From Parcubacteria group bacterium GW2011_GWB1_42_6 (lineage in GTDB: Bacteria; Patescibacteriota; Minisyncoccia; Portnoybacterales; GWB1-42-6): 64,000 nt of DNA. Of this stretch, positions 776 to 54,148 are shown in pieces (within the stretch, counting starts at the first letter, position 1; every line of letters starts with the position of its first letter). Below the pieces are notes generated by a model. That model was given only the letters and a program-made list of their open reading frames with translations, had not been told where the DNA came from and ran no database searches. Location: the NCBI GenBank assembly GCA_000997475.1, contig LCEC01000001.1:375-64374 (forward strand), read 5' to 3'. The position numbers and the translations under genes are program-made.

Positions 776-1832
776 TTTCAGCGGCAATCGCGTTTTTATC
801 ATCGCCGAAGCGGGCAAAAATTTCATCCAAACCCGGGAAGAAAAAACGTCCGAGGAATATTTGGCCAATGCCAAAGAATTGATCAGGCTGGCCTATGAAG
901 CCGGAGCCGACGCGGTGAAATTCCAAACCCACAATTTGGATGATGAGCAATTTGAAACGAATATAACTTCGCCCCATTTTTTAGGCAGCGATCGGTATAA
1001 TTGGATAAAACGCAATGATCGGGCGGCAACGATTGATTTTTGGAAAGAGTTAAAAGCTTTCGCGGATGAATTGGGCATAATATTTTTTTCCACTCCCATG
1101 AGCCGGGGAGCGGCCGTAAAATTGGAAGAAATCAATGTGCCGCTTTGGAAAGTCGGTTCGGGCGATATTCTTGATTTTGTGATGCTTGATTATTTGGCGC
1201 AAACGAAAAAACCGATAATTCTTTCTTCGGGGATGAGCACTTTGGAAGAAGTCGATCGGGCGGTGGAATTTTTGAAAAAAAGGGAATCCAAAATCGCGCT
1301 TTTGCATTGCGTTTCGCGTTATCCTTGTCCGCCCGACGAGCTCAATCTTAAGACTATAGAATTCTTTAAAAATCGCTACAAAGCGCCGATCGGTTTTTCG
1401 GATCACTCAATCGGCTTTGAAACGGTTTTGGCGGCCGTGGAGCTGGGAGCGGTTATAATAGAAAAGCATTTTTCATTGAGCCGCGATCTGTGGGGAGCGG
1501 ATCACAAAGTTTCCATGACTCCGGATGAATTTGAACAAATGGTCAAGGCCGCGCGCAAAACGCAGGCTTCCAAATTGACAAACTTGGGCTCAACGGATAA
1601 GCTTCTACAAGACGAAGAAGTCGTTTTCAGGCCGATTTTCCGCAAAATTTTGCGCGCCAGCCGCGATTTGAAAGAAGGGGAAATTTTGGAAAAAAACGAT
1701 ATCTACGCGATGAGGCCCCAAGAAGACGCCCAAGACGGGCTGCCTTCCGAAGATTACGAAAAAGTTTTGGGTAAAAAATTGAAAAGAGACATAAAAAAAT
1801 ACGATCCGATTTCTCGGGATGTTATTTTTTAA
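750..1832 (+). CDS. NeuB-family nonulosonic acid synthase (N-acetylneuraminate / legionaminic / pseudaminic acid synthase-like), copy 1
   Basis: N-terminal VFIIAEAGKNF..AVKFQTH motif typical of NeuB/PseI/LegI TIM barrel, with a C-terminal SAF-like segment; 360 aa. Confidence 0.8.
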   Translation: MAGSKMDFNFSGNRVFIIAEAGKNFIQTREEKTSEEYLANAKELIRLAYEAGADAVKFQTHNLDDEQFETNITSPHFLGSDRYNWIKRNDRAATIDFWKELKAFADELGIIFFSTPMSRGAAVKLEEINVPLWKVGSGDILDFVMLDYLAQTKKPIILSSGMSTLEEVDRAVEFLKKRESKIALLHCVSRYPCPPDELNLKTIEFFKNRYKAPIGFSDHSIGFETVLAAVELGAVIIEKHFSLSRDLWGADHKVSMTPDEFEQMVKAARKTQASKLTNLGSTDKLLQDEEVVFRPIFRKILRASRDLKEGEILEKNDIYAMRPQEDAQDGLPSEDYEKVLGKKLKRDIKKYDPISRDVIF

Positions 1833-3068
1833 TATTATGGAACAGCCAAAAAGAAAAAAAATATTGATTCCCATTTTAAACCGCGCCCACTACGGGCGTT
1901 TAAGGTCGGTTTTGAAAGCTGTCAACGACCATCCAAAACTCGAGCTGATGATTCTGGTCGCTTCTCCGCTGGCTTATAGCAGTTTTTTTTTAAATCTCAA
2001 ACACAGCCGGCCGGCTTTGAAAGGGCAGGCTTTGCGTTGGTATTTAAAAGCTCGTTTTCTCTCTTGGGCGGGAAAATTGAATCCCCGATTTTTAATCAAT
2101 AAAGATTTTTTGATAAAAAGCATTCTTGACGACGGGTTTCCCATTTACAGCCGCGTCCCTTTTTTCATAGACGGCGGATCATCCGTTTCCATGGCCAAAT
2201 CGGTCGGTTTCGGACTAATAAAACTGGCCGATGAATTTAACAGGCTGAAGCCCGATGCGGTTTTCGTGAATGCCGACAGATTTGAAATGATGGCGGTGGC
2301 GTTGGCGGAGCCGGTGACGTGAGCGGAACGATTGACGAAAGCGTCAGGCACGCCATTACGAAACTCGCTCAAATCCATTTCACTTCAACCCAAGCCAGCC
2401 GCAACCGCGTCATTCAAATGGGTGAAAACCCCCAAACCGTTTTCGCGGTCGGTTCGCCCTCAATCGATATAGTCAAAAATCTCGATTTGGACGCGCTTCC
2501 CAAAATTTTGCCGCCGGGTTTTCAAATCAAAGACCCCTATCTTTTGGTGGTTTTCCATCCGGTGGCTACGGAAAGTTCGCAAAAAAATATTGCTTTGACC
2601 GAAAATATTTTGAAAGCGGTTGAAAATATGGCGATGCCCGCTATTTTTTTGGGATCCAATATTGACGGCGGTTCCAAAGAAGTCGGTTTAATGGTGAAAA
2701 AATTTCTTTCCAAAAACTTGCCCTTCGTTCATTTTTACAAAACTTTGCCCCCGGATGATTTTTATCGTTTTTTGGCGGGCGCTTCCTGCGCCCTGGGCAA
2801 TTCGTCGAGCTTTATCAGGGAAGGCGCTTTTTTTGGCGCGCCGGCGGTTATTGTCGGATCGCGCCAGCAAAAAAGGGAGCGAGGAGAAAATATAAAAGAA
2901 GCCGGTTGCAAAGCCCAAGAAATAGAGAGAGCCGTGAAAGATCAGATCGCCCACGGACGCTTTGCTTCAAGTCTAATATTTGGTTCGGGGAAAGCCGGCG
3001 AACAAATCGCTCAAATTTTGGCCGAGACAAATCCTCCAATTCAGAAAACTTTTTTTGATCGGAGTTGA
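1819..3068 (+). pseudogene. UDP-N-acetylglucosamine 2-epimerase (hydrolysing) NeuC/LegG homolog, split by a frameshift plus a ~30-nt deletion near 2286-2322
   Basis: ORF 1819-2322 encodes the N-terminal half (..DAVFVNADRFEMMAVALA..). ORF frame +2, open from 2286, encodes the C-terminal half starting GGAGDVSGTIDESVRHAITKL, matching the conserved GGEVSGTIDE motif. About 11 residues of the active-site segment are missing between the two halves. Confidence 0.55.
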
Positions 3069-22150: not shown

Positions 22151-23089
22151 ATGTTTTCCGTTGATGATATTCAACAAAACGTTCCCCTCTCTTCCTTCGC
22201 CACCTTCCGCATCGGCGGAGCGGCTAAGTATTTTTTGGTTGTCAAAACAAGAGAAGAATTGATTAAAGCGGTAAAATGGGCGCGTGAAAACGATTTGTCG
22301 TATTTTGTTTTGGGAGGCGGCAGCAATATTTTAATTTCGGAAAAAGGTTTCAGTGGTCTTGTTATAAAAAACGAATCGAACGGTTTAAAAATTGGCGAAA
22401 TGGAAGACGGAAAACTAAAAGTGAAGTGCGATTCGGGAGTTATGACGGCCAAAATAGTTTTTGAGACAACAAAGCTTGGTTACTCCGGAGCCGAATGGGG
22501 ATTCGGAATTCCCGGCACGATCGGCGGGGCGATTTGCGGCAATGCCGGCCGTTTGGGCCGGGAAACATCGCAAATCGTGGAAAGCGTCACAATGCTCGGC
22601 GGCGACTTATCGGAGAAAGAAATCGCCAAAAGCGAATGCGGATTTGAATATCGCTCAAGCCGATTCAAAAAAAATCAAGAAATTGTTTTAGGGGCGGAGC
22701 TGGAGTTTGTCAAAAAATCGAAAGAAGAAATTAATTCGGTTCTCAATGAGGCCAAAGAAATCGTCCGGCAAGGCGCTCCTTTTCCTTCGGCCGGCTGCGC
22801 GTTTAAAAACTATGTTGTGAGGCAAAATGACCCGCTTTTGCTGAATCACCCGGATTTAAATGAAAAAGTCAGGGGCGGAAAAATCGGCGTGGGATTTTTG
22901 ATTGATCAGAGCGGGCTTAAAGGCCGTAAAATAGGCGGAGCGCGAATTTGGGAAGGGCACGCCAATTATATTGTGAACGCGGGCGGCGCAAAATCGGGCG
23001 ATGTTTTGGAACTGATAAAATTGGCCAAAGAAAAAGTTAAAGAAAAATTCGGAATTGAACTTGAAGAAGAAATCAGGGTAATAAAATAA
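22151..23089 (+). CDS. murB: UDP-N-acetylenolpyruvoylglucosamine reductase MurB
   Basis: FAD-binding N-terminus (FATFRIGGAAKYF..LGGGSNIL) and MurB C-terminal domain. Confidence 0.8.
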   Translation: MFSVDDIQQNVPLSSFATFRIGGAAKYFLVVKTREELIKAVKWARENDLSYFVLGGGSNILISEKGFSGLVIKNESNGLKIGEMEDGKLKVKCDSGVMTAKIVFETTKLGYSGAEWGFGIPGTIGGAICGNAGRLGRETSQIVESVTMLGGDLSEKEIAKSECGFEYRSSRFKKNQEIVLGAELEFVKKSKEEINSVLNEAKEIVRQGAPFPSAGCAFKNYVVRQNDPLLLNHPDLNEKVRGGKIGVGFLIDQSGLKGRKIGGARIWEGHANYIVNAGGAKSGDVLELIKLAKEKVKEKFGIELEEEIRVIK

Positions 23090-23284
23090 TTTCCAAATTA
23101 CAATTTCCAATTTCCAAACGATTCCGAATTTTGAGCTTAAGATCAGAATTCGGAAATATTGGAAATTTAAGAATTAGGCATTTCATTAGAAATTGGGATT
23201 TGTAATTTGGAAATTTTCTATTGCATTCTTTTCCAAAAAGCTTATTATGAAAATATAAGCTTTTTTAATTGTTAAAAAATTTTA

Positions 23285-23313
23285 TTTACATTTGAAAAAA
23301 TAAAATATATAAT
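23285..23313 (+). promoter_or_regulatory. Sigma70-like promoter upstream of hpf
   Basis: TTTACA, 17-nt spacer, TATAAT; lies 30 nt upstream of the hpf ATG. Confidence 0.5.
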
Positions 23314-24304: not shown

Positions 24305-24309
24305 GTGTC

Positions 24310-24392
24310 ACCCTACGGAATTACGGATTGGTACGGATATTACGGATTTGATTTATCTGTATAATCCGTATATATCTGTAATTCAGTAGGGT
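24310..24392. repeat. TACGGAT direct/inverted heptamer array (copy 1)
   Basis: ccctacggaattacggattggtacggatattacggatt..taatccgtatat..gtagggtt. Confidence 0.6.
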
Positions 24393-24452
24393 TATGAAAC
24401 CTCGCCATAATTAACAAGAGTTAATTAACTCAAGAAAACCCGGCGGAGGGCC

Positions 24453-25694
24453 GTGATTTTCTTTTGGTTTATGAAGCATTTAACTAAAAGATTGGTTGGG
24501 CCCCGCGTTCTCAACGAACCGATTACCGGCTCGGAAACAACGGCGGAGCTGTTTGAAAAGGCGTTTGGCGCTTATGTCGGGCGCGAAGTAAAAACCGCCT
24601 ACAATATAATCAAGCGTATGGTTGAAAAAGATCACACGGTTGTTTTGGCGATTTCAGGAGCGATGACGCCGGCTGATTTTGTCGTGCCCTGCGTGATTCC
24701 CTTGATTAAATCGGGAATCGTGGATGTCATAACCACTACCGGCGCCAATATCTATCATGATGTGCAGCGTCTTGAAAGCGACGATTGGTTTCAGGTCAAT
24801 CCTAATGAAGGCGATTTGAAATTGCGCAAAGCGGGTTGGACGAGAATTTATGACACCGCTTTTCCCGAAGACGATCTTTGGGCGACGGATAATCTGATTA
24901 TTGATCTTGTCCGCCGGTCGGATTTCGCCCATCAGATGACAACCACGCAATTTCATTATCTTTTAGGCGAGCATCTTTCCAAGCACGGACGGAGAAGATT
25001 CGCCACGGCCGATTTAAACCGCAGCTTGCTGGTTCAAGCTTATCGGCATAAAATTCCGATATTTTGCGGCGCGCCACAAGACGGTTCAATATTTTTGAAT
25101 TTGGCTTTTCTCAAAAGAAAGCTTGGCCCCAAATACAAATTCGGCATTGATATGGAACTTGATATCCATGAATTCGGCGCTTTCCACTATTTCGCCAAAA
25201 ATAAGAGATCAAAAAAATTATCGGTGATAATTTTGGGCGGCGGAGTGCCTAAAAATTATTCTTTGCAGCCCGAGCCGTATTTGACGCAAATTTGCGGAAT
25301 TGACGCGGGTGGCTACGATATGGATGTTCAAATCTCCGACGCTCACGTTCAAAACGGCGGGCTTTCTTCCTGCACGGCCTCCGAAGCTCACACTTGGGGA
25401 AAGACTTCGGAGGCGTGTTTAAAAAATTCCCAATATGTTTTTGCCGATGTCACTTCCACTTTTCCTTTTATCGTTCACGCTTTGATGCAGGAAGAATTGG
25501 AGAAGGAACCTCGCAGACTGATGGAGCATCGCGATGAAGCGATTGAACTTTTGGACAAGGTTCTCAAAAGAAAAACCTTAAGGGAATACTATCTCAAAGG
25601 AAAAGTTAAAAAAGGCGAACTGCATCCGGAAGCTCATTTTGGATCAAACCACGCCGGCCATGTTGAAAAAACGGCCGACAATCCGGAGGCGTAA
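24453..25694 (+). CDS. Deoxyhypusine synthase-like protein (DHS family; possible homospermidine synthase)
   Basis: ..VVLAISGAMTPADF..IVDVITTTGANIYHD.. resembles the DHS NAD-binding core; probable start MKHLTKRL at 24471. Confidence 0.65.
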   Translation: MIFFWFMKHLTKRLVGPRVLNEPITGSETTAELFEKAFGAYVGREVKTAYNIIKRMVEKDHTVVLAISGAMTPADFVVPCVIPLIKSGIVDVITTTGANIYHDVQRLESDDWFQVNPNEGDLKLRKAGWTRIYDTAFPEDDLWATDNLIIDLVRRSDFAHQMTTTQFHYLLGEHLSKHGRRRFATADLNRSLLVQAYRHKIPIFCGAPQDGSIFLNLAFLKRKLGPKYKFGIDMELDIHEFGAFHYFAKNKRSKKLSVIILGGGVPKNYSLQPEPYLTQICGIDAGGYDMDVQISDAHVQNGGLSSCTASEAHTWGKTSEACLKNSQYVFADVTSTFPFIVHALMQEELEKEPRRLMEHRDEAIELLDKVLKRKTLREYYLKGKVKKGELHPEAHFGSNHAGHVEKTADNPEA

Positions 25695-25695
25695 A

Positions 25696-25818
25696 TTATC
25701 GCGGATCTGACGCGGATCTTTGGACTGTGCCGCGGATAAACGCGGATTTTCAACCGCTCGGCGCCGTTGACGGATTTCTATTCGTAATTGGTTTTAAATT
25801 CGTAATTAGTGAGGATTC
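25696..25818. promoter_or_regulatory. CGCGGAT x4 array followed by a tandem ATTCGTAATTRG module upstream of the agmatinase gene
   Basis: cgcggatctgacgcggatc..ccgcggataaacgcggatttt .. attcgtaattggttttaaattcgtaattagtGAGGAttcATG. Confidence 0.5.
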
Positions 25819-26763: not shown

Positions 26764-26777
26764 TTCATCGGATAGTA

Positions 26778-26806
26778 AAGAGACCTTAAAACGGTCTTTT
26801 TTTATT
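26778..26806 (+). terminator. Putative rho-independent terminator after agmatinase
   Basis: Short hairpin agacc/ggtct followed by a T7 run. Confidence 0.45.
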
Positions 26807-33728: not shown

Positions 33729-33770
33729 TATAAGTGAGTTATTTACGCTATAGCGTAAATAACTCACTTA
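33729..33770. repeat. Perfect 18-bp-stem palindrome
   Basis: taagtgagttatttacgc tatagc gtaaataactcactta. Confidence 0.8.
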
Positions 33771-33849
33771 TGGAAATTTGAAGGGGACATTCAGAAATAA
33801 TTAAAATAATTAAAAAGGACGGAATTTTTCCGTCCTTTTGCGTTTTTAA

Positions 33850-34435
33850 CCAGATAAACCACCAGCGTAAGCTGGTGAGTGCGTTTAAAAGCGTAGCTAT
33901 TGTACAATAAAATCACCTCGGGAAAGGAGGTGATTTTAAACATGAGCAGAAGCTATCTGCTGTATCAACTCGACCACTGCACTTACCATTGCAGTTATCA
34001 TATCGTGTGGACACCACGATTCCGCGGTAAGGTTTTGGCCGACAACTATATTAAAGCAGAATTAAAAAGAATGTTCAAACAGATTGCCAACTGGAAAGGA
34101 CTAAGGATTTATGCTTGGCACATCGGAGATGAGCACATCCATCTGCACATCTGCATTCCTCCCAAATATTCTATTGCCTACATCATTCAAATTCTCAAGG
34201 GAAAAACTTCTGGCTGGATCAAAAAGAAAACCAAGAAGTTTCCCAAAGGAGTCCTCTGGGCCAGGGGATACTTTGTTTCGACCGTTGGCATCACGGAAAT
34301 CGCCGTGAAAAAATATATTGAAAACCAGCAACACCATCAAATTGAACTTTCTCAATTAAAACTTTGTTAGCCGGCTGGCGTCAGCCAGCAAAAAGATACC
34401 CCCAGCGTTTAAGCTGGGGGTAGTTCATTTTGGCC
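33850..34435 (+). mobile_element. IS200/IS605-family insertion sequence (tnpA only) with left-end and right-end hairpins
   Basis: Y1 HUH transposase ORF flanked by similar hairpins: accagc-gtaa-gctggt at 33861 and cccccagc-gtttaa-gctggggg at 34401. Confidence 0.55.
33942..34370 (+). CDS. tnpA: IS200/IS605 family Y1 (HUH) transposase TnpA
   Basis: YHCSYHIVWTPRFR and HIHLHICIPP (HuH) motifs. Confidence 0.8.
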   Translation: MSRSYLLYQLDHCTYHCSYHIVWTPRFRGKVLADNYIKAELKRMFKQIANWKGLRIYAWHIGDEHIHLHICIPPKYSIAYIIQILKGKTSGWIKKKTKKFPKGVLWARGYFVSTVGITEIAVKKYIENQQHHQIELSQLKLC

Positions 34436-41089: not shown

Positions 41090-41107
41090 CTATATAATGC
41101 GAACCTA

Positions 41108-41186
41108 CGAACTTAATGCTAACTATGCGAACTGCGAAATCTGTTAAACCGGATTTATTTTCGCAGTTCGTAGGTTGGCATTAGAT
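41108..41186. repeat. GCGAA-motif palindrome
   Basis: gcgaacctacgaact ... agttcgtaggttggc inverted repeat with internal gcgaa repeats. Confidence 0.6.
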
Positions 41187-43652: not shown

Positions 43653-43728
43653 GAGTTTGCGCTCCCCCTCTTCCTTGCGCGCTTCATATTTATAGCATAG
43701 AATGAGGTAAATTACAAACCCCCGCACC

Positions 43729-43868
43729 TAATCGGCATAATTGAATTCTCTTTCTTCTCTGTCATCCCCGCGCAGGCGGGGATCCAGATTAATTCAGAAC
43801 CTGGATTCCCCCCGTAGCTGCGGGGCGGGAATGACAAATATAAAGCCAATGCCGATTAGGTGCGGGGG
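43729..43868. mobile_element. MITE-like element A with 19-bp perfect terminal inverted repeats
   Basis: TIR CCCCCGCACCTAATCGGCA / TGCCGATTAGGTGCGGGGG; internal multi-hairpin core. Confidence 0.6.
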
Positions 43869-45066: not shown

Positions 45067-45653
45067 TAATCGCGGGAAGGCCGGGGCCCAAAGCGTAATT
45101 TCGGAAATACCCGATTTTGACAGCTAAGCCGCTGTCTTGTCAGCCAATCCGTAACGGAAAGGCAAGCTTTGGGGATTGGGTTTGTGCCGTCCACGGTTTA
45201 TGTTTTTACTCGCTCTATTTTTGGATAGAGTCTCCGGTTGCTTCCCGCGACAGGAAGAACTTTCTTGCATCATGCCTCTGGCAAGGAATGATTTTTTGAT
45301 ATTAGCAAAATAATTTTTATTTGTCAATAAAAAAAACAAGGCTCTCGTTTTGTGAGAGCCTTGGTGCAGAAAGAAGTTTGTCTGGAAAAATTGCTTGCTC
45401 TGACGCATATAATGGGAGGGATAAGGAAAAAGAGAAATAATGAAGATAAGCGCTGATGAATCAGACAAACTCCTTTTTATAAAGAACTGATTGAAAGGGA
45501 AATCGGTATGGAACCGGGAAATTAAGGCTGCGCTCTTTCCCTTTCAATTATATTTTATGCTTTTTTAAAATTTTGTAAATAGAATTATCCACAGGCAATA
45601 TTCTTTTGCGAATTTTTTTTAAAATATAATTATTATAAATATTTTGCCATCTC

Positions 45654-45682
45654 TTGACAAGGTGATCAATAGGGAGTATACT
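45654..45682 (+). promoter_or_regulatory. Near-consensus sigma70 promoter
   Basis: TTGACA, 17-nt spacer, TATACT. Confidence 0.55.
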
Positions 45683-45688
45683 GGAACC

Positions 45689-46270
45689 ATAGGCTAAGGA
45701 TGGAGTCTGAATTTAACCGAAAAGGGCTTGTTTGAGCCAACGGCAGACCCCCTAGCTCGCACATTTATATAAAAATATCAATTAGATCTTCGCCCCGCCT
45801 GCCGGCCGAACCCATCAATTTTATTTAGATGGCTGCGCGACCAGGCATGTGTGGCGAATTCGGGTTTCTTTTTTCGGACAGGTTGCGGGACAGGCATCCC
45901 TTTTAATGACAGCATTGCGATCGTCATTATTACTGACCGAAAATGAACCCGGAAAAATTGGAAGAGGAGAGGAATCCCGCCCGCAGACCTCGCCCCGATG
46001 AAAATATCATCGACGATCCGTCATTGGACGCCCCTCTCCCTTCCGCCTAAAAAGTCCCCGTCATTTTCGTAAGTAAGGGTTGCCGTACCCGATAAGAGTT
46101 TTATTGAAAGAAGCAAAAACCCTCTTATCGGTAAAATAGCAACACCGTTTCAAAATCAGCGACGACGGGGCAAAAAAGAGGAGCCAGTGGATTAAATACC
46201 CATTGGCTCCTCGGAATTATTGTTTCTTAAGACACCGAAGCCCCCCAAAAACACGAGGGGCTTCTTTTTT
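45689..46270 (+). ncRNA. Candidate structured non-coding RNA (~580 nt, class unknown)
   Basis: Bounded by a consensus promoter and a strong terminator (gaagcccc/ggggcttc plus T6 at 46237-46270). Multiple stable hairpins, including a 10-bp stem at ccgataagag..ctcttatcgg. No ORF of 60 aa or more on either strand. Confidence 0.35.
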
Positions 46271-46767
46271 ATCTTTTATGATTTTAAAAACGACGCAATC
46301 CATCACACTCAAGAGTAAAACAGGTTGTGCTCTGATTATTTATTATTGCGGAACAAAATAAAAAGAGCGCTTCGTTTGAAAGCGCCCTCATTTTGATGCA
46401 GGCGAGAAAAAATTTTATCTAAGAATTCTCGAGTTCTCTCAGATATTTTTTCCTCGTCGGGAATTATCGTGTTAGACGACCGCCTTGTTTTCGCATTAGC
46501 GAATGTTTCGAGTTCTTAAGCTCGATCTTTTTAGGCGTTGATAACACTAACTCCCTTTATAACTTTTGGAAAATTTGGATTACCCGTCCTTCCCTTTTGG
46601 ACTTGGGAAGAGTTGGGGTGATGCTCGACTCATACTGCCTCCGTGGAATGGAGTTTTCTTGAGTGAGCGGAAGGTACTGACCGATCGAAAGCCGATAAAA
46701 ACAGCCTTCGATCATATATAGAGATTATAAAATAACGATGAGCTTGTCAAGTCTTTTCAATTTTACA

Positions 46768-46883
46768 CACACCTAGTCAGGATATTTGAATTTAATTTGG
46801 ATAATAAACAAGTTTACTCCCAATGGCTTGTTTGTCTTCGAAGGATTCTTTGAATAAAAAACAATCCTGATTAGGCGCGGGGG
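46768..46883. mobile_element. MITE-like element B, copy 1
   Basis: (c)cacctagtcagga ... tcctgattaggcgcggggg imperfect TIRs; interior is the reverse complement of copy 2. Confidence 0.55.
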
Positions 46884-46937
46884 CAAGGGAAAAGAAATCC
46901 GATTGAACTTTTGAATTTGCCGTGCTAAGATTTTTAT

Positions 46938-48856: not shown

Positions 48857-48935
48857 GTCATTCCCGCGCAGGCGGGAATCTAGATTAATTCAGAATTAGA
48901 CTTGGGTCTGGATCCCCGTTTTCACGGGGATGACA
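48857..48935. repeat. TIR-less copy of the MITE-A core (GTCAT..ATGAC multi-hairpin unit)
   Basis: gtcattcccgcgcaggcgggaatctagattaattcagaa.. is about 80% identical to 43761-43837. Confidence 0.55.
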
Positions 48936-49530: not shown

Positions 49531-49647
49531 CCCGCACCTAGTCAGGATTGTTTTTTATTCAAAGAATCCTTCAAAGACAAACAAGCCATTGGGAGTAAAC
49601 TTGTTTATTATCCAAATTAAATTCAAATATCCTGACTAGGCGCGGGG
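49531..49647. mobile_element. MITE-like element B, copy 2 (inverted relative to copy 1)
   Basis: cccgcacctagtcagga ... tcctgactaggcgcgggg. Confidence 0.55.
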
Positions 49648-51851: not shown

Positions 51852-51960
51852 TTTTCAACCAACCGTGCTAAGCAATCCTTCTTCTTCGATGAAGAGGTTC
51901 CGCGGAAGCAAAGCGGAGCTGACGGTGCGTTTAGCGCGTTTTGTATTGGTTTTTTTCCTC

Positions 51961-52065
51961 ACTAATTACGAATAAATTTACTCCAATTACGAATAATTAT
52001 AGATTAATTGCGAGATGATGCGCTTCATTCGTAATTAGTTCTTAATTCGTAATTGGCGAGGATTC
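51961..52065. promoter_or_regulatory. TTCGTAATT palindromic module upstream of rpmJ
   Basis: Two copies of YYAATTACGAAT, a spacer, two copies of ATTCGTAATTRG, then GAGGATTC ATG. Confidence 0.5.
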
Positions 52066-52179: not shown

Positions 52180-52189
52180 AATCATTTTA

Positions 52190-52262
52190 ACATTTTAGCA
52201 TTTTAGCATTTTAGCATTTGAATTATTGAATTTTGTTAATATGCTAACATGTTGATATGTTA
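52190..52262. repeat. ATTTTAGC x3 array plus inverted TGCTAACATG motifs upstream of rpsM
   Basis: cattttagcattttagcattttagcatttgaatt..tatgctaacatgttgatatg. Confidence 0.5.
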
Positions 52263-52274
52263 AAATGACTAGCC

Positions 52275-52664
52275 ATGCCCAGAATCGCGGGAGTAAATAT
52301 TCCGGATAATAAAGTGATCGTCATCGCCCTCACGTATATTTACGGAATCGGGCGGACTTTGAGCAATAAAATTTTAGCCCAAGCAAAAATCGATCCGGGG
52401 GCGCGGGCCAATAAACTTTCGGCTGATGAAATTAACCGATTGAGAGAAATTATCGAAAAAGGATTGAGAGTCGAGGGGGAATTAAGGCGCGAAAGGATGA
52501 TGAACGTGAAAAGGTTGAAAGATATCGGTTCATACCGCGGGATAAGACATATCAAAGGTTTGCCGGTTCGAGGCCAAAGAACGAAAACAAACACCAGAAC
52601 CGTTCGCGGAAATATCCGCAAGACTATGGGTTCGGGCAGGAAGGCTTCGGCGGAAAAGACATAA
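52275..52664 (+). CDS. rpsM: 30S ribosomal protein S13
   Basis: [26 protein letters not shown]. Confidence 0.9.
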
Positions 52665-52667
52665 ATC

Positions 52668-52845
52668 TCGCTTCGCCCGCTTCTTTTCAAAAAACGCCAA
52701 AGCCGCATAACAAACAAATCATTTGGCTTTGGCTAAGCGCTCAACGCGCCGCATAAGACTATTTCAATATAAACAGCTTATGCCTTGGGCGCGTCTCGCG
52801 ATTTTTTTGAAAAGAACGGGCTTGCTCGTCGATAATAAAATCTAA
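52668..52845. repeat. Structured intergenic element between rpsM and rpsK
   Basis: Outer ~25-bp inverted repeat (cgcttcgcccgcttcttttcaaaaaa / tttttttgaaaagaacgggcttgctcg) enclosing two hairpins (gccaaagcc..ggctttggc; cgcgccgcataag..cttatgcc..ggcgcg). Confidence 0.55.
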
Positions 52846-52849
52846 ATTC

Positions 52850-53311: not shown

Positions 53312-53312
53312 A

Positions 53313-53392
53313 ACCCTACGGAATTACGGATTAGTACGGATATTACGGATTCAAATTGGATTTATCCGTATATTCGTAAAAATCCGTAAATC
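53313..53392. repeat. TACGGAT direct/inverted heptamer array (copy 2)
   Basis: ccctacggaattacggattagtacggatattacggatt.. first 38 nt almost identical to 24310-24347. Confidence 0.6.
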
Positions 53393-53406
53393 TATAGAAA
53401 ACCACA

Positions 53407-54039: not shown

Positions 54040-54049
54040 TTCGCTCCTC

Positions 54050-54148
54050 ACCAATTACGAATAAATCCAATCCAATTACGAATTAAAGCCGGCTACGAAT
54101 AGTTTTATATTCGTAATTGGTTCCAATTCGTAATTAGCGAGGAAAAAT
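54050..54148. promoter_or_regulatory. TTCGTAATT palindromic module upstream of rpoA
   Basis: ccaattacgaat x2 ... attcgtaattgg ttccaattcgtaattagcGAGGAaaaatATG. Confidence 0.5.

What the first reader, a model, noticed from the sequence alone, without database searches (positions are those of the whole stretch)
24310..24392. TACGGAT heptamer arrays in two promoter-proximal intergenic regions (upstream of the DHS-like gene and of rpsD)
Between pdaD and the DHS-like gene the sequence reads ccctacggaattacggattggtacggatattacggatt..taatccgtatat..cagtagggtt. It has four direct TACGGAT units plus inverted ATCCGTA units, closed by a ccctac/gtaggg inverted pair. A second copy with its first 38 nt nearly identical lies at 53313-53392, upstream of rpsD. 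Such arrays resemble clustered binding sites for a dimeric or oligomeric DNA-binding protein. Alternatively they are a small dispersed repeat.
Basis: seen in the sequence. Interest (0 to 1): 0.5.

Follow-up and report, generated by a model that had tools for sequence, protein, structure and literature searches.

The report
Dispersed word-built hairpin repeat in operons
The TACGGAT arrays are the two arms of an ~83-base hairpin-forming repeat that has been inserted between genes inside operons of a Candidatus Portnoybacteria (CPR) genome; it is a small dispersed palindromic repeat, not a set of promoter operator sites, and is mildly interesting because related hairpins fill the gaps between ribosomal-protein genes in distant CPR lineages.

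Summary
Both sites carry TACGGAA plus three TACGGAT at a 9-nt period. They share 39 nt with one mismatch. The same sequence was assembled in several independent metagenomes.

The direct units are the 5' arm of one long interrupted hairpin (24310-24392, -44.8 kcal/mol, z -8; 53316-53397, -33 kcal/mol). Both copies lie inside operons: hpf-pdaD-[hairpin]-DHS-speB and rpsK-[hairpin]-rpsD-rpoA. Neither spacer has a promoter-like or terminator-like site.

Homologous copies (about 85% identical) occur in another Portnoybacteria species at five unrelated junctions. Recognisable relatives occur in Saccharibacteria ribosomal-protein operons. Orthologous junctions in relatives are empty (35-39 nt against 166 nt; 6 nt against 95 nt) or hold different sequence.

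The window has many more hairpins of the same build made from other words (ATTCGTAAT, TTTGTAAT, GCGAAT). About half of the co-directional spacers surveyed in these CPR loci are strongly structured.

My best reading is a MITE/REP-like dispersed palindrome that is co-transcribed. It bridges stop and start codons and often supplies or occludes the Shine-Dalgarno sequence. Any role in translational coupling or RNase III processing is inferred, not shown. No mobilising enzyme was identified. The binding-site-array reading is not supported.

The parts
24310..24392 (+). TACGGAT hairpin element, copy 1. The 5' arm is 24310-24347 (CCCTACGGAAT TACGGATTGG TACGGATAT TACGGAT), the loop 24348-24354, the 3' arm 24355-24392 (ATCTGTA..ATCCGTA..ATCTGTAATTCAGTAGGG). 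It lies 5 nt after the pdaD stop codon and 78 nt before the DHS-like start (ATG 24471).
   Evidence: As + strand RNA it folds to -44.8 kcal/mol, z -8.2; the - strand gives -34.1. CM R1 scores 93 bits. Pair types are 28 Watson-Crick, 3 G-T, 0 A-C.
53316..53397 (+). TACGGAT hairpin element, copy 2 (degenerate 3' arm). It lies 4 nt after the rpsK stop codon and 9 nt before the rpsD ATG.
   Evidence: It folds to -33.2 kcal/mol, z -6.0. CM R1 scores 72 bits. Against copy 1 the 5' arm differs at 1 of 37 positions and the 3' arm at 12 of 37, p = 0.0014.
24394..24470 (+). Remainder of the lineage-specific insertion between pdaD and DHS. It holds a 6-codon mini-ORF (24394-24414) that starts 1 nt after the hairpin, a TTAATTAAC/GTTAATTAA palindrome, and then the conserved GGAGG motif (24442-24452).
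   Evidence: The orthologous spacers are 35-39 nt (L415, L416, L420) against 166 nt here. The DHS N-terminus MKHLTKRLVG is conserved.
54045..54143 (+). Related word-hairpin (AATTACGAAT / ATTCGTAATT) that fills the rpsD-rpoA spacer. Its base is CCTCAC...GCGAGG, so the GAGG Shine-Dalgarno sequence of rpoA lies in the stem.
   Evidence: It folds to -35.3 kcal/mol, z -7.3. It appears as inverted repeat I5. CM R1 gives a weak match of 32 bits, E 3e-6.
51956..52062 (+). Related word-hairpin (AATTACGAAT / ATTCGTAATT) directly upstream of rpmJ, with base CCTCAC...GCGAGG followed by attcATG.
   Evidence: It folds to -34.6 kcal/mol, z -5.8. It appears as I15/I16 and D4/D12. The same site in L413 holds a CCTAC..ATTACGAAT..GTAGG hairpin, in L409 a TACGGAT-family copy, and in L408 none.
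25780..25818 (+). Half array: ATTCGTAATT twice, then GTGAGGattc directly before the ATG of the arginase-family gene. It is 85% identical over 52 nt to the rpmJ-upstream 3' arm.
   Evidence: Direct repeats D8/D12; word positions.
52182..52268 (+). Word-hairpin (CATTTTAG x4.6 / inverted) that fills the rpmJ-rpsM spacer. Its 5' part is shared with L409.
   Evidence: Inverted repeat I1, 35-nt arms, 83% complementary. TRF period 8, 4.6 copies. Comparison with L409.
23088..23215 (+). Word-hairpin (AATTTCC / TTTGTAATTTGGAAATT) after murB.
   Evidence: Inverted repeat I2, 30-nt arms, 90% complementary. TRF period 7.
41092..41186 (+). Word-hairpin (GCGAAC / CTACGAACT ... AGTTCGTAGG) that ends at the next gene's start.
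   Evidence: Inverted repeat I11, 22-nt arms, 91% complementary. z -4.5.

Best explanation
The two TACGGAT arrays are copies of a roughly 83-bp non-coding palindromic repeat. It is a small dispersed MITE/REP-like element of CPR bacteria. Each arm is a run of four 8-10-nt words (TACGGAW plus a short spacer).

Shown here: the copies sit inside operons; they occupy spacers that are short or differently filled in relatives; homologous copies are dispersed at unrelated gene junctions in other Portnoybacteria and in Saccharibacteria; and the element folds into a long interrupted stem of four helices separated by small internal loops.

Inferred: it spreads or is copied between junctions, by a mechanism and enzyme I could not identify. 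It is transcribed as part of the polycistronic mRNA. It is tolerated because it folds back on itself, which brings the upstream stop codon and the downstream start codon to the foot of one stem.

In several copies the 3' foot (GTAAGG, GTAGGG, or GAGG in the sister family) lies 4-7 nt before the ATG. It would then serve as the Shine-Dalgarno sequence while pairing with the 5' foot. A ribosome terminating 1-10 nt upstream of the foot would melt the foot and expose that site, which is translational coupling by RNA unfolding. A 30-bp-plus stem is also a plausible RNase III substrate.
For: Structure: -44.8 and -33.2 kcal/mol, z -8.2 and -6.0. The consensus has 34 pairs across five copies.

Operon-internal position: Pfam context; no promoter-like or terminator-like site in either spacer, with flanking promoter-like 23285-23313 and terminator-like 26777-26801.

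Dispersal: there are three copies in the S10 operon of L070 (rpsJ-rplC, rplW-rplB, rplB-rpsS). Two more copies lie in L409-L412, upstream of rpmJ and between two GT4 genes. They score 72-108 bits with a model of the family. Within that species the copies differ at 0-2 of 37 positions per arm.

Relatives: Saccharibacteria S10/spc operon hairpins share TACGGAAnTACRGAT...ATCYGTAATTCnGTA.

Occupancy varies at orthologous junctions. The pdaD-DHS spacer is 35-39 nt in L415, L416 and L420 against 166 nt here. The rpsK-rpsD spacer is 6 nt in L408; in L201 (S4 84% identical) it is 67 nt of unrelated sequence.

Geometry: the hairpin starts 1-10 nt after the stop codon where the upstream gene is close, and ends 5-9 nt before the ATG in most copies. 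L070a, L070b and both L409 copies read GTAAGG, then 6-7 nt, then ATG.

The same build with other words occurs in many window spacers. Of 51 co-directional spacers in these CPR loci, 47% have z < -3. The RNA-unfolding coupling mechanism, including a +52 nt example in rpmI-rplT, is established (PMC12548453).
Against: No target-site duplication could be defined, and no autonomous element with matching ends was found. The only transposase in the window is an IS200/IS605 Y1 enzyme whose own end hairpins are unrelated to the element.

Only two copies were seen in 64 kb. No whole-genome census was possible.

Copy 1 lies 78 nt from the DHS start and copy 2 has no Shine-Dalgarno-like foot, so the coupling idea does not fit the two window copies well.

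The better-folding strand (G-T pairs rather than A-C) is the sense strand in the window but the antisense strand in L070 and L409. Across 51 spacers, sense is no more stable than antisense (24 of 51). There is therefore no positive sign of selection on the mRNA fold.

Covariation is weak: 1 of 34 pairs shows a double change. No expression data exist.
Confidence: 0.55

Rival explanations
1. It is a selected cis-acting RNA element, not merely a tolerated repeat. CPR operons would use long intercistronic hairpins in one of two ways. They could serve as RNase III processing or stabiliser sites, as in the phage T7 early mRNA. Or they could act as a structural bridge that places stop and start codons side by side, so that termination-reinitiation or unfolding-dependent coupling is kept despite a 70-100-nt spacer.
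For: In the Saccharibacteria S10/spc operon, and in several Portnoybacteria junctions, hairpins span the spacer to within 1-10 nt of the stop codon and 3-9 nt of the start codon. The 3' feet are Shine-Dalgarno-like at canonical spacing. Several upstream-of-rpmJ sites carry a hairpin in three of four Portnoybacteria lineages, although the words differ. The rpmJ-rpsM hairpin is partly conserved between species with 62% identical S4. About half of the spacers surveyed are strongly structured.
Against: There is no sense-strand bias in stability (24 of 51). The TACGGAT element folds better on the antisense strand in L070 and L409. Some relatives have compact junctions at the same places (6, 3, 10 and 35 nt), so the hairpin is dispensable there. 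There is almost no compensatory covariation, and no transcript data.
Confidence: 0.25
2. The arrays arise in place. Replication slippage multiplies a short word in an AT-rich spacer, and intramolecular template switching (quasi-palindrome correction) copies it to the other arm. The similar copies would then be convergent or spread by gene conversion, not by transposition.
For: Every spacer has its own word set. There are direct-only arrays (CGCGGAT x4 at 25700-25747; ATTCGTAATT x2 at 25780-25806). Copy 2 shares a sharply bounded 39-nt block with copy 1 while its other arm is diverged, which is what a short conversion tract would give. Arrays of permuted control heptamers are as common as TACGGAT arrays in a large collection (40 against 45 and at least 120 loci).
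Against: The whole 83-nt unit, including loop and inter-word spacers, is 95-100% identical at five unrelated junctions in one species. It is about 85% identical between species whose S4 proteins are only 62% identical. The outer unit TACGGAAnTAC / GTAATTCnGTA is shared between two CPR classes.
Confidence: 0.12
3. The TACGGAT words are binding sites, spaced one helical turn apart, for an oligomeric DNA-binding protein. Examples would be a ribbon-helix-helix repressor such as omega or MetJ, or an OmpR-type regulator. The protein would control DHS and rpsD.
For: The words are better conserved than the 1-3-nt spacers between them. The period is 8-10 bp. Copy 2 keeps the TACGGAT arm almost intact while the other arm decays.
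Against: There is no promoter at either site, and both are intercistronic. The remaining TACGGAT occurrences are at chance level. The array is absent at orthologous junctions. Copies precede unrelated genes: L3, L2, S19, L36, a glycosyltransferase, S4 and DHS. Changes in the second arm are almost all C-to-T, which keeps pairing. Neighbouring spacers use other words. No adjacent regulator gene was found.
Confidence: 0.06

Closest known systems
REP / BIME / REPIN elements of proteobacteria (mobilised by RAYT Y1 transposases)
   Same: Both are short, non-coding, hairpin-forming and dispersed. They are typically located between co-transcribed genes just after stop codons and are co-transcribed. 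They are known to affect mRNA stability and translation of neighbours. A REPIN is likewise a long hairpin of about 100 nt (PMC3116915, PMC3337134, listed; functional roles are from my own knowledge).
   Different: REP units are 20-40 nt, G+C-rich and individually palindromic. Here the element is 32-37% G+C and each arm is a run of direct words, not a palindrome. No RAYT was found: the window's Y1 transposase scores as IS200 (114.9 bits) and fails the RAYT model (25.8 against a cut-off of 80). Its own end hairpins are unrelated.
Correia/NEMIS elements of Neisseria, and ERIC, RUP and BOX-type bacterial MITEs
   Same: These are 100-150-bp palindromic repeats inserted in intergenic regions and co-transcribed into long hairpins. 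Correia hairpins are cut by RNase III and change expression of the downstream gene (my own knowledge, not tested here). Presence or absence varies at orthologous sites, as it does here.
   Different: Those families have defined terminal inverted repeats, a TA or similar target duplication, and hundreds of copies. Here no target duplication was found, the copy number is unknown, and the arms have an internal 9-10-nt word periodicity.
Intercistronic hairpins that occlude the downstream ribosome-binding site (translational coupling by RNA unfolding, for example rpmI-rplT, MS2 coat-lysis, f1 VII-IX)
   Same: A stem whose 3' strand contains the Shine-Dalgarno or start region and whose 5' strand lies at or just after the upstream stop codon (PMC12548453). 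The ATTACGAAT hairpins before rpmJ and rpoA, and the L070/L409 copies, have this geometry.
   Different: The known cases are gene-specific, conserved structures. Here the hairpin is a repeated, interchangeable module. The two window TACGGAT copies fit the geometry poorly: copy 1 is 78 nt from the start, and copy 2 has no Shine-Dalgarno sequence.
Short tandemly repeated repetitive (STRR) heptamer arrays of heterocystous cyanobacteria
   Same: Both are intergenic arrays of a heptanucleotide word, sometimes in inverted blocks (my own knowledge; a lead only).
   Different: STRR units are contiguous 7-mers in long arrays. They are not 83-nt discrete units bridging cistrons. No sequence relationship was tested.

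Membership tests
MITE (miniature inverted-repeat transposable element) | Small non-coding unit bounded by inverted repeats | tested here: met
   The unit is 83 nt and the whole of it is an interrupted inverted repeat with 33-34 pairs.
MITE (miniature inverted-repeat transposable element) | Several near-identical copies at unrelated loci in one genome | tested here: met
   There are three copies in L070 and two in L409-L412, differing at 0-2 of 37 positions per arm. The window has two copies. Whether L070 and L409 are the same species is assumed from near-identity of the element, not shown.
MITE (miniature inverted-repeat transposable element) | Filled versus empty orthologous sites | tested here: met
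   The pdaD-DHS spacer is 35-39 nt in L415, L416 and L420 against 166 nt here. The rpsK-rpsD spacer is 6 nt in L408. These comparisons are between species, not strains.
MITE (miniature inverted-repeat transposable element) | Target-site duplication flanking each copy | tested here: inconclusive
   No consistent duplication was seen by inspection of seven copies. A/T-rich candidates such as AATAAT (L070a) and GAAAAG (L409) are not reproducible.
MITE (miniature inverted-repeat transposable element) | A cognate autonomous IS with the same ends | tested here: not met
   None occurs in the sequence held. The IS200-like element at 33858-34421 and the rve transposase in L409 have unrelated ends. The rest of the genome is not available.
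REP/REPIN with RAYT | REP-associated tyrosine transposase gene | tested here: not met
   ORF 33943-34370 scores 25.8 bits on NF047646 REP_Tyr_transpos, against a cut-off of 80. It scores 114.9 bits on NF033573 IS200, against a cut-off of 55. This covers the window only.
REP/REPIN with RAYT | 20-40-nt G+C-rich imperfect palindrome with a conserved GTAG head | tested here: not met
   The unit is 83 nt with 32-37% G+C and word-built arms. GTAG is present only in the foot of copy 1.
Transcription-factor operator array (for example RHH heptad arrays, MetJ boxes, OmpR-type direct repeats) | Overlaps or adjoins a promoter | tested here: not met
   There is no sigma-70-like site in 24305-24470 or 53312-53406. 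Both sites are intercistronic. Non-sigma-70 promoters are not covered by the scan.
Transcription-factor operator array (for example RHH heptad arrays, MetJ boxes, OmpR-type direct repeats) | The same motif conserved upstream of orthologous genes or a regulon | tested here: not met
   The motif is absent at orthologous junctions. Other TACGGAT sites in the window are at chance level.
Transcription-factor operator array (for example RHH heptad arrays, MetJ boxes, OmpR-type direct repeats) | Specific binding by a cognate protein | not testable with these tools
   This needs EMSA or footprinting. No regulator gene is adjacent.
TIGR array (TIGR-Tas RNA-guided system) | Two alternating 8-12-nt repeats separated by variable 9-nt spacers, 5-15 units, next to a Nop-domain Tas gene | tested here: not met
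   Here there is one 7-nt word with 1-3-nt spacers, four units per arm, and no Nop-domain protein among the window ORFs scanned.
Intrinsic (Rho-independent) terminator | Short G+C-rich stem followed by a T run | tested here: not met
   The scan does not report either site. The stems are A+T-rich, 33 pairs long, with no T tract. Canonical terminators occur elsewhere in the window.
Any Rfam RNA family | Score at or above the family's gathering threshold | tested here: not met
   There are 0 hits at gathering thresholds. At relaxed thresholds the only hits are plant miRNA-precursor models at 24-29 bits against 83 needed, which is generic long-hairpin resemblance.

The most novel reading that the evidence does not exclude
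CPR bacteria (at least Portnoybacteria and Saccharibacteria) routinely replace the tight stop-start junctions of ribosomal-protein and other operons with modular hairpins of about 75-90 nt built from repeated words. The TACGGAA-TACRGAT...ATCYGTA-TTCnGTA family would be a sequence-conserved, functionally selected member. The stem would place the stop and start codons side by side and so mediate structure-bridged re-initiation, a bacterial analogue of a ribosome shunt. Alternatively it would act as a general RNase III punctuation system for polycistronic mRNAs.
Probability: 0.15. Interest if true: 0.7.

Novelty: new member of a known kind. Interest (0 to 1): 0.4.

Why it matters
For this finding, the practical result is a correction. 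The arrays should not be annotated as operator sites or used to infer a regulon.

More broadly, small, streamlined CPR genomes are not expected to carry 70-170-nt structured inserts between ribosomal-protein genes that are nearly contiguous in relatives. If these hairpins affect translational coupling, mRNA processing or stoichiometry of ribosomal proteins, they would be a lineage-specific layer of post-transcriptional organisation in organisms with very few recognisable regulators. They would also give a marker of mobile DNA exchange between CPR classes.

Tried and rejected
1. A universal TACGGAT motif. A scan of 185,579 species genomes found at least 117 loci with three spaced TACGGAT, in many phyla. 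Permuted control words were equally or more frequent in viral contigs (40 against 45 and at least 120). The word itself is therefore not special across databases. The viral examples look like origin or operator iterons.

2. Strand asymmetry as proof of an RNA. The element always folds better on the TACGGAT-first strand. That strand is sense in the window and antisense in L070 and L409, and 51 spacers show no sense bias. I rejected this as evidence for an mRNA function.

3. Arm asymmetry as proof of a protein site. It is significant only for copy 2, which is a degenerate copy. Copy 1 against L070 is symmetric.

4. Covariation. The five-copy alignment gives 1 of 34 pairs with a double change. 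The cross-class alignment slips register because the words repeat, so its G-C/A-U counts are not a valid test.

5. Related loci from JGI metagenomes via S4 gave only relatives of 55% identity or less. A crude spacer survey of them was too noisy to use.

6. TIGR arrays, intrinsic terminators and sigma-70 promoters, Rfam families and tRNA/tmRNA all gave nothing.

7. A link to the IS200-like transposase in the window. Its end hairpins are unrelated and single-copy.

8. CsrA-type GGA sites. I considered this from memory, because ACGGAU resembles CsrA sites. I dropped it because the GGA lies in stems and the sister families lack GGA. It was not tested.

9. Literature. No paper in the library describes these CPR hairpins.

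Full report
OBSERVATION

TACGGAT occurs 13 times in the window against 4.2 expected, and no shuffle reaches 13. Nine of the 13 are in the two sites; the other four are isolated. Each site reads TACGGAAT-TACGGATTrG-TACGGATAT-TACGGATT. TRF calls a period-9 array of 3.8 copies at 24314-24347 and 53317-53350. The two sites share 39 nt (24310-24348 and 53313-53351) with one mismatch.

The feature is not an assembly artefact. Four JGI metagenome contigs from different samples are at least 99.9% identical to the window and carry the identical copy-1 region. Two ENA contigs and one Logan contig carry the identical copy 2.

ANATOMY

The direct units are only half of the object. Together with the inverted units they form one long interrupted hairpin.
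- Copy 1 spans 24310-24392. It has four helices of 7-11 pairs separated by 1x1 or 2x2 internal loops. It folds to -44.8 kcal/mol, z -8.2.
- Copy 2 spans 53316-53397. It folds to -33.2 kcal/mol, z -6.0.
- The words are the paired segments, and the 1-3-nt inter-word spacers are the internal loops.

CONTEXT

The flanking genes are S30AE/HPF, PvlArgDC (pdaD), [copy 1], deoxyhypusine-synthase family, and arginase family. At the second site they are S13, S11, [copy 2], S4, RpoA and L17. All are on the + strand.

The consensus scan finds no sigma-70-like promoter and no terminator-like site in either spacer. A good promoter-like site lies before hpf (23285-23313) and a terminator-like site after the arginase-family gene (26777-26801). 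Both copies are therefore intercistronic, not promoter-proximal.

Homologues show that the DHS-like protein starts at ATG 24471, because the N-terminus MKHLTKRLVG is conserved. The spacer is therefore 166 nt.

ORGANISM

The closest named S4 and DHS homologues are Candidatus Portnoybacteria / Parcubacteria. The window is a CPR (Patescibacteria) metagenome-assembled sequence. The same DNA occurs in ENA sample ANAN16-1.

THE ELEMENT IS A DISPERSED FAMILY

A genome-collection scan for three spaced TACGGAT brought in L070, a Portnoybacteria contig. It has three copies of a homologous 83-nt unit in 4.4 kb. Pfam shows these lie in the S10 operon, at rpsJ-rplC, rplW-rplB and rplB-rpsS.

Contigs fetched independently through S4 homology (L409-L412, S4 62% identical to the window) carry the same unit directly upstream of rpmJ. 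A second copy lies between two GT4 glycosyltransferase genes.

The copies align over their whole length.
- Within the L070/L409 group they differ at 0-2 of 37 positions per arm.
- Window copy 1 differs from them at 4/37 in the 5' arm and 6-7/37 in the 3' arm (L070a, L070b, L409); against L070c it is 6/37 and 7/37.
- Window copy 2 has a decayed 3' arm: 12/37 against 1/37 relative to copy 1, p = 0.0014.

A covariance model of the family scores these copies at 72-108 bits. At 36-45 bits it also finds four or five hairpins in a Saccharibacteria contig, L021. L021 is the S10/spc ribosomal-protein operon. The Saccharibacteria and Portnoybacteria units share the outer unit TACGGAAnTAC / GTAATTCnGTA and the TACRGAT / ATCYGTA words.

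ORTHOLOGOUS JUNCTIONS ARE NOT CONSERVED

The pdaD-DHS spacer:
- 39 nt in L415 and L416 (DHS 82% identical);
- 35 nt in L420 (79% identical);
- 166 nt in the window.

The rpsK-rpsD spacer:
- 6 nt in L408;
- 67 nt of unrelated sequence, with its own short direct repeat, in L201/L202 (S4 84% identical);
- 90 nt in L409/L410 and 155 nt in L413, each with other words.

The site upstream of rpmJ:
- a TACGGAT-family copy in L409;
- an ATTACGAAT hairpin in the window and in L413;
- nothing in L408.

IT IS ONE INSTANCE OF A GENERAL ARCHITECTURE

Many window spacers contain hairpins whose arms are runs of 7-10-nt words:
- AATTACGAAT / ATTCGTAATT before rpmJ and rpoA;
- CATTTTAG before rpsM;
- AATTTCC / TTTGTAATTTGGAAATT after murB;
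- GCGAAT types before rplQ and a GT4 gene;
- CTACGAACT at 41092-41186.

Intergenic 6-mers such as TTCGTA (14 observed, 0.7 expected) and GTAATT (13 against 0.9) are strongly enriched. ATTCGTAAT occurs 13 times, 12 of them intergenic.

The model of the TACGGAT family weakly recognises the ATTACGAAT hairpins (22-32 bits). L413 has a hybrid with the CCTAC/GTAGG foot and ATTACGAAT words. The two are therefore probably sister families.

Across 51 co-directional spacers of 40-200 nt in the window and six related CPR loci, 47% fold with z < -3.

GEOMETRY RELATIVE TO TRANSLATION SIGNALS

Where the upstream gene is close, the stem begins 1-10 nt after its stop codon. In most copies it ends 5-9 nt before the next ATG.

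In L070a, L070b and both L409 copies the 3' foot reads GTAAGG followed by 6-7 nt and ATG. In the ATTACGAAT hairpins the foot is GAGG followed by 4-6 nt and ATG, paired with CCTC at the 5' foot. In the Saccharibacteria operon the hairpins span the whole spacer and no Shine-Dalgarno sequence is visible.

This is the arrangement required for translational coupling by RNA unfolding, a documented mechanism (PMC12548453). That it operates here is inference only.

The two window TACGGAT copies fit least well. Copy 1 is followed by a 6-codon mini-ORF and a further 56 nt before the DHS start. Copy 2 has no Shine-Dalgarno-like foot.

STRAND TESTS

Every copy except copy 2 has all its transition mismatches as G-T on the TACGGAT-first strand (3-5 G-T, 0 A-C). 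Each copy folds 1.5-14 kcal/mol better on that strand. But that strand is the mRNA sense strand in the window and the antisense strand in L070 and L409. Over 51 spacers, sense is more stable in only 24.

The asymmetry therefore belongs to the element lineage. It may be inherited from a master copy, or it may reflect a single-stranded DNA intermediate. It is not evidence for selection on the mRNA fold.

PROTEINS

Pfam scans covered essentially all window ORFs. They found no regulator next to either site and no Nop-domain protein. They did find an IS200/IS605-family Y1 transposase (ATG 33943 to 34370). It passes the IS200 model and fails the RAYT model. Its flanking hairpins are unrelated to the TACGGAT unit and occur only there. 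It shows that hairpin-dependent single-strand transposition exists in this genome, but I could not link it to the element.

WIDER DISTRIBUTION OF THE WORD

TACGGAT arrays, often with an inverted partner array, occur in many phyla: Prevotella/Xylanibacter, Saprospiraceae, Lentisphaerae and others. Control heptamers of the same composition give as many or more arrays in a viral collection. An inverted partner is somewhat more frequent for TACGGAT (11/40 against 5/45 and 5/120), but the viral cases look like iterons. I therefore treat the cross-phylum matches as the general abundance of short-period arrays, not as one family.

KNOWN FAMILIES

There was no Rfam hit at gathering thresholds. At relaxed thresholds only sub-threshold plant miRNA-precursor models match, which reflects generic long hairpins. 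TIGR arrays, which also occur in parasitic bacteria, have a different unit structure and need a Tas gene. No paper in the library describes these CPR hairpins.

CONCLUSION

The finding is a real, well-structured, dispersed palindromic repeat. It is closest in kind to REPIN, Correia or ERIC-type elements. It has unusual word-built arms and a habit of occupying intercistronic junctions in CPR operons. The operator-array interpretation is not supported.

Three things remain open: whether the hairpins are merely tolerated or are used for coupling or processing, how they are copied, and why the TACGGAT arm of copy 2 stayed intact while its partner decayed.

Noticed in passing
window 33858-34421 (ORF ATG 33943 to 34370, + strand): This is a complete-looking IS200/IS605-family element. 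It has a Y1 transposase (Pfam Y1_Tnp E 4e-31; NCBIfam IS200 114.9 bits, RAYT model failed). A perfect 21+21-nt palindrome lies upstream (33730-33771), an RBS-occluding hairpin lies before the ATG, and CCAGCG..GCTGG hairpins lie at both ends (33858-33880, 34398-34421). It is single-copy in the window.
   Followed up: partly
window 45469-46937: This is a 1.47-kb stretch with no ORF of 70 aa or more, in an otherwise compact genome. It begins with a good TTGACA...TATACT-like promoter sequence. Rfam at gathering thresholds finds nothing there. It could be a large non-coding RNA or a decayed gene.
   Followed up: no
window 46772-46881 and 49531-49640: A roughly 110-nt sequence is present twice in inverted orientation (97% identical by BLAST through L001). 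It is bounded by CCCGCGCCTA(A/G)TCAGGAT-type ends. A related 20-nt perfect inverted pair lies at 43719-43738 / 43849-43868. This is a second, unrelated repeat family.
   Followed up: no
window 43764-43783, 48860-48879, 48912-48931: ATTCCCGCGCAGGCGGGAAT-type palindromes (ATYCCC-N8-GGGRAT) occur within GTCATTCCCGCGCAGGCGGGAATCTAGATTAATTCAGAA. From memory they resemble the Neisseria dRS3 repeat form. That resemblance was not tested.
   Followed up: no
window 51865-51943 (infA-rpmJ spacer); also L408, L409, L410, L413: A motif GTGCTAAGCAA...GCGTTTAGCGCGTTTTG is conserved in sequence and position in every Portnoybacteria infA-rpmJ spacer examined, upstream of the variable word-hairpin. It is probably a conserved structured RNA. 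There is no Rfam match.
   Followed up: partly
window 52204-52307: There is a sub-threshold match to Rfam Alpha_RBS, the S4-binding leader of the alpha operon: 24.2 bits against 38 needed, E 0.011. It lies at the expected place, the rpsM 5' region, and overlaps the CATTTTAG word-hairpin.
   Followed up: no
window 25700-25747: There are four direct CGCGGAT units (spacings 11, 20 and 10 nt) in the DHS-speB spacer, with no inverted partner and no significant fold (z -0.6). They are followed by the ATTCGTAATT x2 half array. The orthologous spacer is 3-10 nt in L417 and L420.
   Followed up: partly
window 52665-52849; L408 8792-8974, 9362-9535, 12104-12280; L201 427-593: Spacers in the alpha operon region carry 170-185-nt, more G+C-rich long-range hairpins (window rpsM-rpsK: -64 kcal/mol, z -8). 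L408 has three similar copies at rpmJ-rpsM, rpsM-rpsK and rplQ-rplM. This is another intercistronic structured repeat class in Portnoybacteria.
   Followed up: partly
window 24394-24414 and 24442-24452; L415 1395-1433, L420 3966-4000: A 6-codon mini-ORF (ATGAAACCTCGCCATAATTAA) starts 1 nt after the hairpin foot. Its first six bases match the start of rpmJ (ATGAAAG...), the gene that the same element precedes in L409. Separately, a GCCGGAGGGGC-type motif 14-19 nt upstream of the DHS start is conserved across species.
   Followed up: partly
L029, L052, L059, L084, L107, L117 (one Prevotella MAG); L060, L066, L116 (Xylanibacter ruminicola KHT3); L006, L035, L047, L080, L087, L088, L090 (Saprospiraceae): Multi-copy perfect palindromes are built from the same word in unrelated phyla. 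An example is CCTACGGATTTTACGGATTATACGGATT-loop-AATCCGTATAATCCGTAAAATCCGTAGG. Neighbouring arrays mix TACGGAT with TACGAAT, TACAAAT and TACAGAT. Nature and function are unknown. Control words show that such arrays are common in general.
   Followed up: partly
window 1819-2322 and 2319-3068: UDP-GlcNAc 2-epimerase (Epimerase_2) is split into two overlapping ORFs covering profile positions 27-86 and 108-346. This may be a frameshift or a pseudogene. It lies within a nonulosonic-acid (NeuB x2) biosynthesis cluster.
   Followed up: no
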